Positions 758 through 14,590 of a stretch of 14,896 nucleotides of DNA are shown in pieces. The notes below the pieces were generated by a model, which saw only the letters and a program-made list of their open reading frames with translations, searched no databases and was not told the origin of the DNA. The DNA lies in assembly GCF_006345805.1 (NCBI RefSeq), contig NW_021825658.1, positions 1-14,896 on the forward strand, written 5' to 3'. Origin of the DNA: Octopus sinensis. Lineage: Eukaryota. How positions within the stretch are numbered: position 1 is the first letter of the stretch; the number at the start of each line of letters is the position of its first letter. The position numbers and the translations under genes are program-made.

Positions 758-997
758 ATGTGTAAAGCGATTTATTTCGTACTATACGAGAGTTTCACGC
801 TAGGGCGAAACACATAAGTATTTGCATAAAATGGTCTCACGCGAGTAGACAAGAATTTGGACAGAGCCACCTTTACAGGATATTGCCGTAGTCGTTGAAG
901 TAAAATACCTTCACAATCGTGATTAAGTCTGTTGAAGACCGGTGGATCCAAATTCCTGGAGACTACAGTGAAGCAATGCAACGGAAGTAGCTACCGA

Positions 998-2589: not shown

Positions 2590-2644
<55 letters not shown>

Positions 2645-2648
2645 TATA
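2590..2648. repeat. (TA)n microsatellite
   Basis: Directly visible. Confidence 0.97.
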
Positions 2649-2803
2649 ATAAGAGTAAATAATTTCTATAATGGTTTTAAAAAGAACCCACAATTACTTA
2701 CTGGTAGAATTCGGTATGTAAATATAGCCGATTAACGGTAGGAACTTCTGTAAAGTTCAGTATATATATTGTATATAAGTAAATGGGATAGGCAACAGGA
2801 AAG

Positions 2804-2916
2804 CTGCGCTGAAGACGGATGTTAAATACATATGCAATGTATATGAAATATATATTAAAAATATATATTCAATATATATTCAATATATTTATAATCCAGA
2901 AACATGATGTTTGCAG
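2804..2916 (+). ncRNA. Type I hammerhead ribozyme candidate with long stem II
   Basis: Stem I CTGCG(2804-2808)/TGCAG(2912-2916); CTGAAGA 2809-2815; stem II GGAT..ATCC extended by an AT-rich imperfect hairpin; GAAA 2899-2902; stem III ACAT-G-ATGT; GUU cleavage triplet ending at 2911. Confidence 0.7.
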
Positions 2917-3031
2917 ATAACCGCCATACTTTGTTTTCGTTATCTATTCCTTCTGTTTTGCATATGTGAATTACAGGGTATGTCGTGTGTGGAGCCCCAC
3001 TTGTAGAAAATAGAAATAAACAGTCTTGACT

Positions 3032-3267
3032 GCTAAGTTACGGGGACGTAAACTCACCAACATCGGTTGTCAAATAGACACAGACACAAACGCACACACA
3101 TATACGACGGGCTTCTTTCAGTTTCCGTCTAACAAATCCGGTCAGAAGTCTTTGGTCAACCCAAGGCTGTTGTCGAAGGCACTCGTCCATGGTGCCACGC
3201 AGTGGAACTGTTCCCGGAACTATATAGTTGGGAAGCTAGCTTCTTACAACACAGCCACGCCTGCACC
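3032..3267 (-). mobile_element. SINE family A, 3'-truncated copy
   Basis: Reverse complement aligns to 10217-~10485, including the head (gtggctgtgttgtaagaagctagc) and gacggaaactgaaagaagcccgtcg. Confidence 0.9.
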
Positions 3268-3282
3268 TATTGATGTATATTG

Positions 3283-3620: not shown

Positions 3621-3676
3621 TTACTCTTTTCTCTTTTACTCTTTTACTTGTTTCAGTCATTTAACTGCGGCCATGC
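3621..3676 (-). mobile_element. 3' tail fragment of SINE family A
   Basis: ctcttttacttgtttcagtcatttaactgcggccatgc is the reverse complement of ~10576-10612, with a similar short repeated tail. Confidence 0.85.
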
Positions 3677-4640
3677 ATGTATGGGTCTAGGACGTCCGTA
3701 ACTGTGTAAGCAACATGAAATACGTAGACAAACGAGTTAAATACATAAAGAACGAGAGAAAAAAATGGAAAACTGGGCAAGTAAACACAGAGAAACGACC
3801 CTTCATCAGTTGTCAGCCGTCTATCTACTCCTCATTTCGAGCATTCAACGACAATGAGTCTTCAAAGACAGTTGCTCTCTTAAATTCTAAAATAAATTTA
3901 GGATTTATGGAGGGTCAAAGTTGAGAACAAAAACAGGACAGTGGAGACATACAAGGAAGCCGAACAAAAACAAACATGGAGGATCGTTAGACCAGAACGA
4001 GAGGAAAATAGTGTACGCTAGGAGAAATATTTTCTTTGAAAAGAGAAAAGATAGAAGAGAGAGAGAGAGAGAGAGATAGAGAGAGAAAAAGTCCACTTCT
4101 ATGAACGTCCGTGCTGGAAAAGAAAGATGGTAATGTGTGAGCAACGAGAGAGAGAGAGAGAGAGAAAGAAAGAAAAACAGATAGGAATCGGTGAACGAGG
4201 GAGGGGGAGAAAAAGGGAATTAGAGAAGGATGGCGGGAGACAATAGTTTCTTTTTTTGTTTCTCCCTTCTATCTTTCCTCAACGAAAATATTTCACCCAG
4301 CGTTCACTATTTTCCTCTAGCTCTGGTTTAACCATCCTCTATGTTTGTTTTCGTTCGGCTTCCTTGTATGTCTCCAGTGTCCTGTTTTTGTTTTCAAATT
4401 TGACCCTCCATAAATCCGAAATTTTATTTTAGAATTTATGGGGGCAACTGTCTTTGAAGACTCATACTGTCGTTGAATGCTCGAAATGAGGAATAGATAG
4501 AGAGCCGACACCTGATGAAGGATCGTTTCTCTGTGTTTACTTGTCCAGTTTTCCGCTTTTTCTCTCGTTGTTTATGTATTTAACTCGTTTGTGTACGTAT
4601 TTCATGTTTACACAGTTGGTGACGTCCTATACCTATATAT
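3677..4640. repeat. Long inverted repeat: arms ~3677-4062 and ~4261-4640, spacer ~200 bp
   Basis: Arms are reverse complements along their length, e.g. catgaaatacgtagacaaacgagttaaatacataaa vs tttatgtatttaactcgtttgtgtacgtatttcatg, with scattered mismatches. Confidence 0.95.
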
Positions 4641-4656
4641 GCACTATATATATATA

Positions 4657-5140: not shown

Positions 5141-5185
5141 GGATCACTGATGCGGTCACAGGAGTGTGACGAAAGAATTCTGGCC
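5141..5185 (+). ncRNA. Minimal hammerhead-like motif (A9>C variant)
   Basis: GGATCA-CTGATGC-G-GTCACA-ggag-TGTGAC-GAAA-GAATTC-TGGCC: perfect 6 bp stem II directly followed by GAAA, palindromic stem III region, imperfect stem I. Confidence 0.5.
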
Positions 5186-5425: not shown

Positions 5426-5463
5426 TCTTTTACGTTTCGAGCCTACGCTCTTCAACAGAAAGA
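5426..5463 (-). ncRNA. Minimal type I hammerhead ribozyme candidate (A6>U variant)
   Basis: Minus strand TCTTT-CTGTTGA-A-GAGC-gtag-GCTC-GAA-ACGT-A-AAAGA: 5 bp stem I, 4 bp stem II, loopless palindromic stem III, GUA triplet. Confidence 0.65.
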
Positions 5464-5809: not shown

Positions 5810-6185
5810 ACCCGGTCTTGGGTCCACTGTCATTGAGTACCGCTGTCTTCTGCTGTAGTCTCCGCTGACCAATGACACGTGAGTGAATTTGTTATTCGGA
5901 AACTGAGTGAAAGCCCTACACGTGTATGTATGTATGTATGTATGTATGTATGTATGTATGTATGTATGTATGTATGCATGTATGTGTGTGCTTTGTATTT
6001 GTGTTCGTCTCCCACTACCACTCCTCAACCGTTGTTGGTTTCTTTATGTTTGTGTTAACTAGCGGTCCGGCAAAAGAGGTTCGATAGAATTAGTACCAGA
6101 GTTAACAATAAGCACCTGTTCGATTAAACCGCCGTAGGCGGTGTCGCAGCACAGCAGTGGTTCATTGACTGTAACAAGTAAAACA
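5810..6185 (+). mobile_element. Old diverged SINE family A copy with internal (TATG)n
   Basis: tgtcttctgctgtag, gtgagtgaatttg, cggaaactga, tagcggtccggcaaaagag, gatagaat and tgactgtaacaagtaaa are colinear with 10217-10627; head eroded. Confidence 0.8.
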
Positions 6186-6594
6186 GATTATCTCCCTTTT
6201 TCATGGAAAGTTTTTTTCTTAACATTTACTTTCGGTTTCATTTTCTTTCCCCTGAAGTAAATTTCTATTCAATAATCCAATAGATAACCACCTACCTCAA
6301 CCACATATATTCATATCTTTCACCCAATTGAATTAATTCCCTAGGCCTAATTTCTGTAATTATGACGATGACAACGTCCAGATTATCATATCCTCATGAA
6401 TATTAACCCATAGATGTGGAAGAGAGGGATAGATCACATGTTCATAGCTCGAGAGTGTCAACTATAAAGTAATTAGCTCTCCAAGGCAGGACATGTTAAT
6501 TGAATACAGTTCTCACAATTAATGAAACATGACGGTTCTAATTAGACAGGAAACGTTTTAATTGTGATTAAGGTTTGTTGTTGCTTTGGCACTC

Positions 6595-7075: not shown

Positions 7076-7238
7076 CGCAGGCATGGCTGAGAAGCTCGTT
7101 TCAGAATCCCGTAGTTTCGGATTTCAGCTCCTCTGTAGAGTGCCAGGGGTAAGTGCCTTTTCTATTAGCCTTGCTAGACTAAAATGCTTTATGAGCAAAC
7201 TTGGCGTAAACGGAAACTGTGAAGAAGTCCTGCATATA
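7076..7238 (+). mobile_element. Diverged 5' half of SINE family A
   Basis: cgcaggcatggctg..agaagct..aagtgccttttctatta..acggaaactgtgaagaag is colinear with 10217-10380. Confidence 0.65.
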
Positions 7239-7899: not shown

Positions 7900-8423
7900 G
7901 GTCAAGGTAATCGACTTTCCCTATACCCCGAAACTTCTGGCCTTGTGCTAAAATTTGAAACCATTATTATTATTTCAAGGCAGCGAGCTGGCAGAATCGT
8001 TAACACGCAAGACAAAATGTCTAGTGGCCTTTCGTCCCTCTTCACGTTCTAAGTTCAAATTCCGACGAAGTCGGCTTTGCCTTTCATCCTTTTTGGGTCG
8101 ATAAAATACGTACTATCTGAGCACTGGGGTTGATATAATCGACTTACTCCCTCTCCCAAAATTGCTGACTTTGTGCTAAAATTTGAAACGATTACTATTA
8201 TTGTAAGGCAGCGAACTGGCAGAATCGTTAAAACACAGGGGACAATGCTTAGTGGCATTTCGTCCGTCTTTACTTTCTGAGTTCAAATTCCGCCGAGGTC
8301 GACTTTGCCTTTCATCCTTTTTGGGTCGATAAAATAAGTACTATCCGAGCACTGGGGTCGATGTAATCGAATTACTCCCTCCCCCAAAATTGCTGGCATT
8401 GTATCAGAATTTGAAACTAATAT
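7900..8423 (+). mobile_element. Tandem array of SINE family C (about 2.3 units, 228 bp period), Nin/Deu-like central domain
   Basis: Units start aaggcagcgaRctggcagaatcgtt at 7977 and 8205; B box GAGTTCAAATTCC 8279-8291; core gtcgactttgcctttcatcctttttgggtcgataaaataagtac; 3' third of another unit at 7900-7976. Confidence 0.9.
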
Positions 8424-8429
8424 ATCGCA

Positions 8430-9052
8430 TACATAGCTAAGGCTCGAGTGAGGCCCATAAAGGAGTAATGCAGTCAATCTAAGGCGGTGTTACTGCTGCA
8501 GAAAATGAGATTCTGGATTGCATCCAGAGGAGGATCAATTGTTTGGTATTGAACCATTAACGGGTACACTTGAGCTTCTCACCCACAGGCCTGCTGCGTG
8601 TGGTCTGTGAAACCTATTTGAGTTAGATGTAGGCGTAGTGTGTTGTTACCTAGGTGAAATGTGTGTGTATTGGCTGTACCCTTTCTAAACAACAGAGCCC
8701 GTGACCTTTGCAAAGCGTTGAAGACTGGTGAACTTATCTTTTCTATTGTTACCAAAATGGCCTCCGTTCTCCGAAGCTGGAAGCGCTTGTACCCTTATCA
8801 CTCCTCCTCACTTGATTCTCTGTTCTTTCCACATCGTGTCTAATTGCATCAGTTCTGCACTAGCCATTATGCCAAATCCATATCCCCCAGAATATCATCC
8901 TTCTGGAATCTCCTTCCCGTTCACGTATTTCGCGTAGATGTTGACTAGCAATCGCTTAAAAGGAACATCAGCGGCACCAAATTCACTAATATTAGAGGCT
9001 CTGCAAAAGACACGGGCTCTGCCCCTTCTTTCAGAAGGGGTACAGCCAATAT
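8430..9052 (+). mobile_element. Decayed LINE 3' end (CR1/Jockey-group ORF2 C-terminus plus 3' UTR), interrupted at 8599-8734
   Basis: Manual translation across stops and frameshifts: KARVRPIKE*CS..GG..ILDCIQRR..LELLTHR..FYCYQNGLRSPKLEALVP..TSHYAKSISPRISSFWNLLPVHVF..D*QSLKRNI, matching the post-RT motifs VRPxxEYCS, LDxIQRR and WNxLP. Confidence 0.85.
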
Positions 9053-9784: not shown

Positions 9785-10108
9785 CTTTTTCTGTTTCCTG
9801 TTTCATGCGGCCACGCTGGGGCAACGAATCGATCCCAGTATTTATCTTTTATGCCTGGTAAATTAGCGGAGTCGCTAAGTTACGGGGACGTAAGCACACC
9901 AATATCGGTTGTCAAGTTGTGATCCGTGGAAAACACACACACACACACACAACGTAACGTACATATATATACGACGGGCTTCTTTCAGTGTCCGTCTAAC
10001 AAATTCACTCACAAGGCTTTGGTCAGCCTGAGGATATGCTGGAAAACACTTACCCAAGGTGCCACGCAGTGATACTGAACCCGGAACCACGTGTTCGGGA
10101 AGCAAGCT
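9785..10108 (-). mobile_element. SINE family A copy lacking its first ~25 nt (head found at 10868-10899)
   Basis: 9873-10108 is the reverse complement of ~10242-10485; eroded tail at 9785-9860. Confidence 0.9.
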
Positions 10109-10216
10109 TTTTTTTTATTTCATTAAATTGGCTATGGAAGCCGTACACAGATGTAGAAACTGCGGGCTGGATAAAGACATTAATAAGATGAGATGAATGA
10201 TGAACAGGAAGGTATA

Positions 10217-10627
10217 GGCGCAGGAGTGGCTGTGTGGTAAGTAGCTTGCTAACCAACCACATGGTTCTGGGTTCAGTCCCACTGCGTGGCATCTTGGGCA
10301 AGTGTCTTCTGCTATAGCCCCAGGCCGACCAATGCCTTGTGAGTGGATTTGGTAGACGGAAACTGAAAGAAGCCTGTCGTATATATGTATATATATATAT
10401 ATGTGTGTGTTTGTGTGTCTGTGTTTGTCCCCCTAGCATTGCTTGACAACTGATGCTGGTGTGTTTACGTCCCCGTCACTTAGCGGTTCGGCAAAAAAGA
10501 GACCGATAGAATAAGTACTGGGCTTACAAAGAATAAGTACCGGGGTTAATTTGCTCGACTAAAGGCTGTGCTCCAGCATGGCCGCAGTCAAATGACTGAA
10601 ACAAGTAAAAGAGAGTAAAAGAGAGTA
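10217..10627 (+). mobile_element. Near-intact tRNA-derived SINE family A (CORE-like block, internal TA/TG tract)
   Basis: A box TGGCTGTGTGG 10227-10237, B box GGTTCAGTCCC 10270-10280, cttgggcaagtgtctt block, tandem tail (gtaaaagaga)x2; several relatives in the window. Confidence 0.95.
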
Positions 10628-11062: not shown

Positions 11063-11450
11063 TATTTGCATATTTCCAGGGCTTAATAATAAAATAACAG
11101 AAATCATTATCAGTTACTCTCAAACTATAAAATGCGTTTCATCATTCACCTTTTTTCCATGCAAAAATTACCAATATTTTGGATGGCCATGGAGCGGGAA
11201 AGAATATTGAACATGGCGGTGGTTGGACATTATTACTGAAAAATAATAGCCTGATTGATCCAATCTTATTCCAGTTCTTGAAGTCTTTGAGAAATTTAAT
11301 AACACCGAGCAGTAGCAGCAGATATTTTCTTTACTTGATCGGAGCTGATGAAACGAGATACTTGCTTAAAATTCTCATATGTGGACATGAAACGAACACT
11401 CCCGGCCAATAACGTTCCAATGAACAGATATTATTATATTAACTAACAGA

Positions 11451-11488
11451 CTGCTACTACTACTGCTGCTGCTGCTGCTGCTACTACT

Positions 11489-11567
<79 letters not shown>

Positions 11568-11676
11568 CACCCACCACCACCACCACCACACCACCACCAC
11601 CAGCACCACCACTGCCGCCGCCGCCGCCACCACGGCCGCCACCACCACTGCCACCACCACCACCACCACCACCACC

Positions 11677-11728
<52 letters not shown>

Positions 11729-12657
11729 GAATAAGAACAGTGGCAGTAGTATTTGTAACAACAATAAAAATAGCAATAAAAACAACATTAATAATAACAA
11801 CAACAACAACAACAATAACAACAACAACAACAACAGTAGTAATAATGATATAGCGAGGCCAGTAATAACATTGTCGCATCAATAATGCTAGTAGTGGCAG
11901 CAGCGTTAGAAGAAGTTAAAAGTAATGATAATGGTGATGATGATGGTGATGATGAGGTGATGGTGAGATGATGATGATGAGGAGGAGGTGGAGGTGGAGA
12001 ATGGTGATGATAAGACCAATCTCTTGTAAACCAACAGCTATAACGATGACCTACTAAACTCGTAACACAACGACTTATGTATCATCAACGCAGCTCTCAC
12101 CGTTATCATCATCATCATCATCATCATCACCATTATCACTATCAATATCTTAATCCACCCACCATCACCACCACCATCATCACCACTACCACCATCGTCA
12201 TTATCATTGTCATTGCTATCGTCACCATCATCAACATCATCACCATTATCATCATGATCATCACCACAACCCAACCACGAACACCACCACTATCATAACC
12301 ACCACCTTCATTATAACCACAACCACCGCCACCACCTCCTCCAGGTCGCCCCCGCCGCTGCCGTCATCACCATCACCACTATCACCTCCATCAACTACCA
12401 ATATCACCACCACCATCACCATCATTATCACTACCATCGTCATTCTAACCGTTGTCGTCGTCGTCGCCACAGTCTTTGTAAACAACAACAACAACATCAA
12501 CAACAACACAACACAACAACAGTATCCACAGCACACTAGAGCGCGAAGGGAAGCAGCAATATCCGTAACTATGGTAACGAAATAATAAATTATTTATATA
12601 TTTATTTAGTAACACAATATATCAACGACACGGACAATAATTGAAATATCAGCTAAT

Positions 12658-12704
<47 letters not shown>

Positions 12705-12860
12705 AAACATCATCAACAGCAGTAATGACAACAGCAACAAAAACAACAATAATTAGTGCTGCTCGATTGGGACTGAAATATCAGCTAATACCAGCAACAG
12801 CAGCAGCAGCGGCCACAACATCCTCAACAGCAGCAATAATAACAACAACAGCAACGGTTG
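11451..12860. repeat. 1.4 kb mosaic of trinucleotide repeats (CTA, CTG, CCA, CCG, CAA, GAT, GAG, CAT, CAG)
   Basis: Directly visible; phase slips at ~11490, ~11571 and ~11590. Confidence 0.95.
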
Positions 12861-13546: not shown

Positions 13547-13601
13547 CTAGTATTGACGAGTCGTGTCCTGTCTTGCTTTCGAAACACGCTAAGTCTACTA
13601 G
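13547..13601 (+). ncRNA. Type I hammerhead ribozyme candidate (C3>U), followed by a second CTGATGA at 13608
   Basis: CTAGTA-TTGACGA-G..C-GAAA-C-acgctaa-GTC-TACTAG: perfect 6 bp stem I in register, G-C closing pair, GUC triplet; rest of stem II weak. Confidence 0.6.
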
Positions 13602-13963
13602 CGACAGCTGATGATTGGGGATTTTCCTTGTGTAGCTTGTCCTGTACCTTGTTTTTCTGTTGTAAATAATGTTTTTCCCGTTTTCGTTCTCGTCCTGTTC
13701 CACGTCTCTGTCTTTCTGTTGTAAAAAAATGACTTTTCCGTTTTCGTTTCTGTCGAGTTCTACGTCTTTTTGTGGTGTCCTGTACTTACGTATATATATA
13801 TTTATATATGCATGTATATATACATGTAGATGTAGGTACGTACATATATGTTTGTATGTATGCATATATTTTATTTATTACACTATTGTCTGACAGCGCT
13901 TCGCGTCGGGTTCGTTCGATTCTTCGCTTCGTTCCGTTTCTTATCCTCCCAGTATTGTTTTAT

Positions 13964-14424: not shown

Positions 14425-14590
14425 GTGCAGGTGCGGCTGTGTGGTAAGAAGCTTGTTTCTCAATCACGTGATTTCGGGTTCAGCTCCACTGCGTGGAACC
14501 TTGGACAAGTGTCTTCTACTATAGTCTCGAGCCAACCAAAGCCATAGGAGTAGAACTGATAAATAGAAACTAAAAGAAGCCTTTCGCATA
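14425..14590 (+). mobile_element. 5' half of SINE family A
   Basis: ggctgtgtggtaagaagcttg, gggttcagctccactgcgtggaaccttggacaagtgtcttctactatag align to 10217-10380. Confidence 0.9.

What the first reader, a model, noticed from the sequence alone, without database searches (positions are those of the whole stretch)
2804..2916. Best hammerhead candidate: complete core with a ~40 bp AT-rich stem II
Seen: CUGAAGA, GAAA and GUU all present; 5 bp stem I; stem III ACAU-G-AUGU with a 1 nt loop; 83 nt between the boxes fold as an imperfect hairpin closed by GGAT/ATCC with a C-A mismatch at its base. Established: stem III loops this short favour dimeric folding. Inference: stem II has grown by TA-rich expansion while staying paired, which length-limited searches would miss. 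Predicted cut after 2911.
Basis: partly seen in the sequence, partly recalled or inferred. Interest (0 to 1): 0.7.

Follow-up and report, generated by a model that had tools for sequence, protein, structure and literature searches.

The report
Stretched hammerhead ribozyme from jumping gene
This is a complete hammerhead-ribozyme-shaped sequence whose second stem is 81 bases of self-pairing AT repeats; it is likely a decayed leftover of a Penelope-like jumping gene and predicted to cut weakly or not at all, so it is an odd-looking copy of a common motif.

Summary
The boxes and stems are present at 2804-2916 and exceed chance in this window (0 of 6000 shuffles; 4 of 400 with a looser descriptor). 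It is a type I hammerhead skeleton.

Three corrections. Stem II is predicted at 33 bp in six segments, not about 40. The 1-nt stem III loop cannot fold as drawn. C2816 and A2898 fit the 'extra N10' and 'extra N11' of the published Penelope (PLE) minimal-hammerhead descriptor, making G2817-C2897 the conserved G10.1-C11.1 pair.

The long stem II is six ~11-nt near-palindromic units. Reordering them keeps the hairpin closed in 644 of 720 orders, so pairing is a by-product, not evidence of selection.

The cleavage-competent fold is predicted at 1.5% (monomer) and about 0.1% with flanks. The window holds no same-strand partner and no second copy, and 37 scanned frames gave no PLE domain.

Best reading: a truncated PLE end beside (TA)n whose loop II was lengthened by repeat duplication, now weak or dead. 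No homologue was reachable, so a family-wide long-stem variant is not excluded (about 0.12).

The parts
2590..2648 (.). (TA)n tract at the left edge of the module; likely insertion target (inferred)
   Evidence: TRF, period 2, 29.5 copies. A (TA)n insertion preference is listed for several PLE families (PMC8557442)
2649..2803 (+). 5' non-coding flank, purine-rich near the ribozyme; presumed remnant of the element's 3' end (inferred)
   Evidence: No second copy in the window. Its pairing with the 3' flank is no better than shuffles (546 of 1000)
2804..2808 (+). Stem I, 5' strand
   Evidence: Pairs with 2912-2916; probability 0.88-0.96 for four pairs and 0.14 for G2808.U2912 in the 113-mer
2809..2815 (+). 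Core box C3-A9, CUGAAGA (N7 = A)
   Evidence: Sequence
2816..2816 (+). C after A9: best read as the extra nucleotide (N10) typical of PLE hammerheads; it faces A2898
   Evidence: PMC4209133 Fig S3 and descriptor S7
2817..2897 (+). Stem II domain, 81 nt, 85% AT, closed by G2817-C2897 (G10.1-C11.1 in the PLE register); 33 predicted pairs
   Evidence: z -4.8 for 2816-2898
2824..2890 (+). Six ~11-nt near-palindromic AT units (degenerate minisatellite) that make up the length of stem II
   Evidence: TRF period 11; unit list and permutation control; the two arms align equally well as direct (36.5) or inverted (35.5) repeats
2898..2898 (+).
   Evidence: Allowed by the published descriptor; 1 of 56 published rows has an A before GAAA
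2899..2902 (+). Core box G12-A15.1, GAAA
   Evidence: Sequence
2902..2910 (+). Stem III, 9-nt near-palindrome with an odd central G; 3 bp plus triloop as monomer, 4+4 bp around a G.G mismatch as dimer
   Evidence: self-duplex -6.4 kcal/mol
2911..2911 (+). H17 = U; predicted cleavage 3' of this base
   Evidence: Position from the hammerhead consensus; not tested
2912..2916 (+). Stem I, 3' strand
2917..3028 (+). 3' flank, pyrimidine-rich near the ribozyme, ending where a SINE-like repeat begins (3029-3270, minus strand)
   Evidence: Self-BLAST: 3029-3270 matches 10214-10487 at 72%

Best explanation
It is a type I hammerhead skeleton with an intact core and an 81-nt stem II made of near-palindromic AT repeats, likely the remnant 3' end of a truncated Penelope-like retroelement, and predicted to cleave weakly or not at all. 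Shown: the core, the stems and the repeat make-up of stem II. Inferred: the ancestral ribozyme had a short helix II closed by G2817-C2897 after an extra C, as in published PLE hammerheads, and would have cut the element's RNA after U2911 as a dimer through its palindromic stem III (G12 as base, G8 2'-OH as acid; recalled chemistry). Inferred: after insertion next to (TA)n, slippage or tandem duplication of an 11-nt self-complementary unit lengthened loop II; such units pair with each other automatically, so the hairpin needs no selection. Predicted: the C/A junction at the helix II base, the odd G in stem III, mispairing of A13/A14 with the cut-site uridines, the distance of loop II from stem I, and the lack of a tandem partner leave little activity.
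For: Core and stems beyond chance. The signature matches PLE minimal hammerheads: extra base after A9, G10.1-C11.1, short helix I, palindromic helix III (PMC4209133 text; rows counted by eye; the descriptor permits extra N10 and N11). The context is full of similar remnants: a short-stem hammerhead skeleton with one core change at 5426-5463 minus, a 365-bp inverted pair at 3674-4038/4280-4643 (89%; inverted 5'-truncated copies are a described PLE trait, PMC8557442), and five core-box modules followed by TA tracts. Expansion is a by-product: 644 of 720 unit orders keep the base closed and 76 of 720 fold at least as well; 7 of 11 hand-picked TA-rich 81-mers elsewhere in the window (two pairs of them overlap) fold as well or better. 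Low activity: cleavage-competent secondary structure 0.015 in the 113-mer and 0.0007-0.0012 with flanks. 10.1-11.1 is the most conserved pair after 15.1-16.1, and U-U is the best tolerated mispair (PMC3088659 passage). A single PLE minimal hammerhead showed no cleavage and dimers only low cleavage.
Against: No homologous copy was found, so neither the short ancestral stem II nor the PLE link is shown. No RT or GIY-YIG domain in 37 frames scanned. The core has no substitution despite a large stem II change, which fits constraint or young age as well as decay. The published 5' U-rich flank is absent; this 5' flank is purine-rich. Imperfect helix II bases can be active: the axolotl motif with a U.U base gave 22% cleavage in 1 h as monomer. 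The native unit order still folds better than most permutations (-20.8 against mean -17.6, sd 2.4). Two copies cofold favourably as a double hammerhead. Secondary-structure energies do not model the catalytic fold.
Confidence: 0.6

Rival explanations
1. The long stem II and the C/A junction are family traits of an active hammerhead variant that cleaves as a dimer and is invisible to size-limited descriptors.
For: Perfect core; stem II z -4.8; the outer 13 nt of the two arms are complementary at 10 positions; extra N11 is allowed in the published descriptor and seen in 1 of 56 rows; dimer cofold is favourable.
Against: Longest helix II domain among 56 published rows is 23 nt against 81 here (by eye). 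Pairing is reproduced by permuting units. Single copy, no partner. Competent fold is rare.
Confidence: 0.13
2. One reading: the ancestor had U10.1-A11.1 with no extra base, and a single T-to-C change at 2816 damaged this copy; the rest of the history is as in the best explanation.
For: Needs one transition. U10.1-A11.1 occurs in 2 of 56 published rows (by eye).
Against: Both of those rows also carry the extra base; 0 of 56 combine U-A with no extra base. CUGAAGAC followed by G occurs in 8 of 56 rows.
Confidence: 0.1
3. It is a solitary monomer of a non-autonomous, non-LTR retrozyme or SINE-like element rather than the end of a coding PLE.
For: Module of about 380 nt without ORF; retrozyme monomers are dispersed through genomes and are proposed to derive from PLE ends (bioRxiv 10.64898/2026.07.22.740005).
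Against: No tandem repeat. Lacks the canonical 6-bp helix I, 4-bp helix II and loop-loop signature of retrozyme hammerheads; it has the PLE-type extra base instead.
Confidence: 0.1
4. A chance arrangement of short motifs around a self-pairing AT minisatellite, with no ribozyme ancestry.
For: Descriptors are post hoc; the loosest one yields 0.25 hits per shuffled window. A genome-wide scan reads very many windows. No Rfam hit and no homologue. The outer flank helix is not significant.
Against: 0 of 6000 and 0-4 of 400 shuffles for descriptors with an exact box. PLE-specific details (extra base, G-C at 10.1-11.1, palindromic stem III) were not demanded by the scan. Other hammerhead-like remnants lie in the same window.
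Confidence: 0.07

Closest known systems
PLE minimal type I hammerheads (Cervera and de la Pena 2014, PMC4209133)
   Same: CUGANGA plus extra base, G10.1-C11.1, short helix I, small palindromic helix III, optional extra base before GAAA, mostly solitary copies scattered through metazoan genomes
   Different: Helix II domain 81 nt against at most 24 nt in the descriptor and 23 nt in 56 rows; stem III palindrome has an odd central G; 5' flank not U-rich; no PLE ORF shown here
Non-LTR retrozymes with canonical type I hammerheads (PMC7229834; bioRxiv 10.64898/2026.07.22.740005)
   Same: Type I topology, dimer-type stem III, small non-coding module; precedent for a mismatch at the base of helix II (axolotl HHR_Amex2, U.U)
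   Different: No tandem array here, no canonical helix sizes or loop 1-loop 2 signature
Naiad PLE 'HHR_half_core' ends (Craig et al. 2021, PMC8557442)
   Same: PLE 3' ends with (TA)n preference whose core boxes lie too far apart (35-50 nt) for standard descriptors; includes cephalopod families
   Different: There the authors found no full hammerhead fold; here all three stems form and the spacing is 83 nt. Three window motifs searched in that supplement gave 0 hits
Rodent Clec2 discontinuous hammerhead (Martick 2008; seen only as a passage and citation in PMC3088659)
   Same: A natural hammerhead with a very large insertion
   Different: Conserved and active in an mRNA 3' UTR; type III with the insertion in loop I (recalled); this one is a single repeat-derived copy

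Membership tests
Type I hammerhead ribozyme | Core boxes CUGANGA and GAAA, A15.1-U16.1, H17 not G | tested here: met
   2809-2815, 2899-2902, A2902-U2910, U2911
Type I hammerhead ribozyme | Three helices around the core, open-ended stem I | tested here: met
   Three-way junction in the 113-mer; beyond chance; stem I is lost in longer context
Type I hammerhead ribozyme | R10.1-Y11.1 pair directly next to A9/G12 | tested here: inconclusive
   G2817-C2897 is present but separated from the core by C2816 and A2898
Type I hammerhead ribozyme | Tertiary contact between loop II and a stem I bulge | tested here: inconclusive
   The terminal loop is 33 bp from the core; a 2x2 internal loop sits 4 bp from the core; the extension of stem I is no better than shuffles (546 of 1000); 3D contacts were not modelled
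Type I hammerhead ribozyme | Match to an Rfam hammerhead covariance model | tested here: not met
   None among 146 and 7 hits; expected for an oversized stem II, and the short-stem motif at 5426-5463 was also missed
Type I hammerhead ribozyme | Site-specific self-cleavage | not testable with these tools
   Needs in vitro transcription or RNA end mapping
PLE minimal hammerhead (PMC4209133) | Extra nucleotide between A9 and 10.1 | tested here: met
   C2816; 54 of 56 published rows have one, C in 11 (by eye)
PLE minimal hammerhead (PMC4209133) | G10.1-C11.1, optional extra N11 | tested here: met
   G2817-C2897 with A2898; descriptor S7
PLE minimal hammerhead (PMC4209133) | Helix I of 3-7 bp | tested here: met
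   5 bp including one G.U
PLE minimal hammerhead (PMC4209133) | Helix II 3-7 bp with a 3-10 nt loop | tested here: not met
   81 nt, 33 pairs against the descriptor. For this reason it is described as PLE-like and not filed as a member
PLE minimal hammerhead (PMC4209133) | Palindromic 15.2-16.2 and loop 3 | tested here: inconclusive
   C15.2-G16.2 met; 8 of 9 positions self-complementary, central G.G
PLE minimal hammerhead (PMC4209133) | Lies in the pseudo-LTR of an RT/GIY-YIG element | tested here: inconclusive
   No Pfam domain above cutoff in 37 frames (36 of 105 frames plus one); most published motifs are also solitary
PLE minimal hammerhead (PMC4209133) | Multi-copy family with covariation | not testable with these tools
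   No eukaryotic genome collection was available; indirect searches found nothing
Non-LTR retrozyme | Tandem repeat with a hammerhead in each unit | tested here: not met
   No second copy of either flank in the window

The most novel reading that the evidence does not exclude
A PLE-derived hammerhead family whose normal form has a 30-bp-plus AU-rich stem II and a C/A junction under the core, still cleaves as a dimer, and has escaped all size-limited ribozyme screens. Such a stem could also be a double-stranded-RNA editing or binding target that tunes cleavage (speculation, no call).
Probability: 0.12. Interest if true: 0.5.

Novelty: new variant of a known kind. Interest (0 to 1): 0.25.

Why it matters
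On the best reading it matters little: PLE hammerheads occur in hundreds to thousands of highly variable copies per genome (PMC4209133), and this is one oddly decayed copy. Its practical lesson is that repeat expansion inside loop II hides intact cores from descriptor and Rfam searches, so counts of hammerheads in microsatellite-rich genomes may be low. If the long stem proved to be a family trait and active, it would widen the known size range of PLE hammerheads about threefold. It would also give a natural test of how much helix II length and junction mismatch the dimeric ribozyme tolerates.

Tried and rejected
Homologue searches all failed. Translations of the flanks found no candidate in the word-index search. 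The full HMMER scan gave 2 hits, both tandem-repeat proteins matching short stretches, rejected as chance. A 21-nt pattern in prokaryotic genomes gave 1 hit, in Halorubrum, with nothing beyond the pattern, rejected as chance. Phage blastn gave no match. Window self-search found no second copy. Neither flank aligned to 9 other window modules better than shuffles (best 13 of 100 shuffles as good). Three window motifs were absent from the Craig et al. supplement.

A search with a SINE reading frame to place the taxon found nothing. The octopus-like origin therefore rests on recall plus a by-eye likeness to published Naiad ends and stays unverified.

An apparent long extension of stem I (2783-2803 with 2930-2951) was rejected as unremarkable: 546 of 1000 shuffles and 1398 of 5882 same-geometry window positions do as well. 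The minus strand has no CUGANGA box in 2701-3030. A Plasmodium snoR21 match over the locus (E 3.9, 20.6 bits against gathering 90) was rejected as AT bias. ARAGORN found 0 tRNA genes.

Left unchecked: eukaryotic genomes, metagenome and viral contigs, the O. vulgaris repeat library on Zenodo, and Lunse et al. 2016 (not held). Rfam scoring of a version with stem II shortened was not run.

Full report
Setting. The window is non-coding, repeat-saturated DNA of eukaryotic type: 96 tandem-repeat rows, several copies of a SINE-like repeat, a 228-bp tandem pair and a 365-bp inverted pair. No tRNA gene was found. No Pfam domain reached its cutoff in 37 frames (36 of the 105 listed plus one). From recall the repeat landscape looks octopus-like; a search meant to test this found nothing, so the taxon is unverified.

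Observation. The isolated 113-mer folds as a three-way junction (z -3.16, 1 of 200 shuffles). A descriptor that just admits the candidate found it once in the window and in 0 of 3000 global and 0 of 3000 local shuffles. Looser descriptors with an exact box gave 0 of 400 and 4 of 400. The loosest, with one box mismatch, gave 2 observed, a shuffled mean of 0.25, and 10 of 400 shuffles reaching 2. These descriptors are post hoc, but the skeleton is unlikely to be chance at window scale. Rfam reports no hammerhead.

Corrections. Stem II is predicted to hold 33 pairs in six segments over 81 nt. The 1-nt stem III loop cannot close; the monomer has 3 bp and a triloop, and in the MFE A13 and A14 pair with the uridines at 2912 and 2911, burying the cut site. 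The probability of a cleavage-competent secondary structure is 0.015-0.017 for 113-131 nt and 0.0007-0.0012 for 171-380 nt.

Register. Published PLE minimal hammerheads carry an unpaired base after A9 and a conserved G10.1-C11.1 pair (PMC4209133, main text parts 1-2 of 4). In its Fig S3 text I counted by eye: extra base in 54 of 56 rows (C in 11), G at 10.1 in 51 of 56, C at 10.1 in 0 of 56, one row with A before GAAA, longest helix II domain 23 nt. The descriptor in Fig S7 allows an extra N10 and an extra N11 and caps helix II at 7+10+7 nt. So C2816 and A2898 fit those two optional positions and G2817-C2897 is the conserved pair. Whether A2898 is a lesion of this copy or a family trait cannot be told without other copies. 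PMC3088659 (passages).1-11.1 the most conserved pair after 15.1-16.1 and U-U the best tolerated mispair. An axolotl motif with U.U there cleaved 22% in 1 h as monomer (PMC7229834 section 15), so some activity is not excluded.

The long stem. It consists of six ~11-nt units, each close to its own reverse complement. The arms align equally well as direct or inverted repeats (36.5 and 35.5). Of 720 unit orders, 644 keep the GGAU/AUCC base closed and 76 fold at least as well as the native order (native -20.8, mean -17.6, sd 2.4). Of 11 hand-picked TA-rich 81-mers elsewhere in the window, 7 fold as well or better, two pairs of them overlapping; the 4 that do not are less purely TA. The z-score of -4.8 therefore reflects palindromic repeats and is not evidence of selection. 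Expansion after insertion is inferred, not shown.

Dimer. Two copies cofold with intermolecular stems I and III (-62.0 against 2 x -25.7; stem III duplex -6.4 with a central G.G). The stem III sequence occurs once in the window and neither flank has a second copy, so any partner must come in trans or from outside the window. A single PLE minimal hammerhead gave no cleavage and dimers low cleavage in the published tests (review passage PMC6765202).

Context. A short-stem hammerhead skeleton with a U at position 6 lies at 5426-5463 minus. Five of 10 C(U/A)GAUGA boxes have GAAA(C/U) 27-29 nt upstream and a TA tract 118-193 nt downstream, against a maximum of 1 in 500 shuffles (post hoc spacing; two of the five are the inverted copies). 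The published octopus Naiad 3' ends show the same arrangement at 27 nt by eye. PLEs are described as 5'-truncated, often inverted and biased to microsatellites (PMC8557442 passages). This makes a PLE origin for the candidate likely, though its flanks do not align to any of these modules.

Homologues. None found; see Tried and rejected. No eukaryotic genome collection was available, so this is weak evidence of absence.

Literature. Nine searches listed no paper that, in the listings or passages I read, describes a PLE hammerhead with a helix II this long. Widely spaced core boxes at PLE ends are noted in print (35-50 nt), as is a natural hammerhead with a very large loop, and 235 hammerhead-1 Rfam hits in giant squid (PMC6962438 passage). 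Also seen: bioRxiv 10.64898/2026.07.22.740005 parts 1-2 of 5 (its supplements were not available); passages of PMC6155905, PMC2837043, PMC544870 and PMC13282606; PMC8557442 supplement by search and part 24 of 59. Lunse et al. 2016 was not held and is known only second-hand; it and unread supplements may contain longer-stem examples.

Verdict. A real type I hammerhead skeleton that looks like a PLE minimal hammerhead. It is not filed as a member because it fails the helix II size test and no PLE ORF is shown. Most likely it is a decayed, weak or silent copy with a repeat-expanded loop II (0.6). Novelty: new variant of a known kind, at the level of one copy. Interest 0.25; the family-wide active long-stem reading has probability 0.12 and interest 0.5.

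Noticed in passing
window boxes at 2473(+), 3345(+), 4512(+), 13608(+), 3809(-): Five of 10 C(U/A)GAUGA boxes have GAAA(C/U) a near-constant 27-29 nt upstream and a TA tract 118-193 nt downstream (shuffles: max 1 of 500). Published octopus Naiad 3' ends, one labelled 'HHR_half_core', show 27 nt by eye. The reversed box order at fixed spacing could be a permuted (type II-like) hammerhead at PLE ends; I saw no consistent stems by eye. Possibly more interesting than the assigned finding.
   Followed up: partly
window 5426-5463 (-); also 929-935 (+): Short-stem type I hammerhead skeleton with 5-bp Watson-Crick stem I, 4-bp stem II and palindromic stem III, but CUGUUGA instead of CUGANGA. The same box with similar neighbours occurs at 929 and by eye in the published Naiad ends; it may be a family-level core variant.
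   Followed up: partly
window 13547-13602 (+): Decayed type I hammerhead-like motif with a 6-bp stem I, UUGACGA box and GAAAC, directly followed by a second CUGAUGA box (read by eye).
   Followed up: partly
window 3674-4038 and 4280-4643: 365-bp inverted pair, 89% identical, 241 nt apart; the arrangement described for inverted 5'-truncated PLE ends. It would form a long dsRNA if transcribed through.
   Followed up: partly
window 10214-10617 (+), 3029-3270 (-), 9873-10112 (-), 14425-14590 (+), weaker at 5844-6190 and 7090-7135: Copies of a SINE-like repeat with an internal (TA)/(TG) microsatellite, 67-84% identical. tRNA-derived and octopus-like by recall only.
   Followed up: partly
window 7908-8417: 228-bp tandem repeat, about 2.1 copies, 85-86% identical; no hammerhead box in it.
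   Followed up: no
window 8800-8990 (+): Stop-interrupted stretch that by recall resembles the C-terminal end of a CR1/L2-type LINE ORF2; Pfam found nothing in the open frames tested.
   Followed up: partly
window 5147-5185 (+): CUGAUGC followed by a 6-bp hairpin and GAAA: hammerhead-like boxes with a G-C closed stem II but no evident stems I and III.
   Followed up: partly
window 11450-12850: About 1.4 kb run of mixed trinucleotide microsatellites (ACT, ACC, AAC, ATG, ATC).
   Followed up: no
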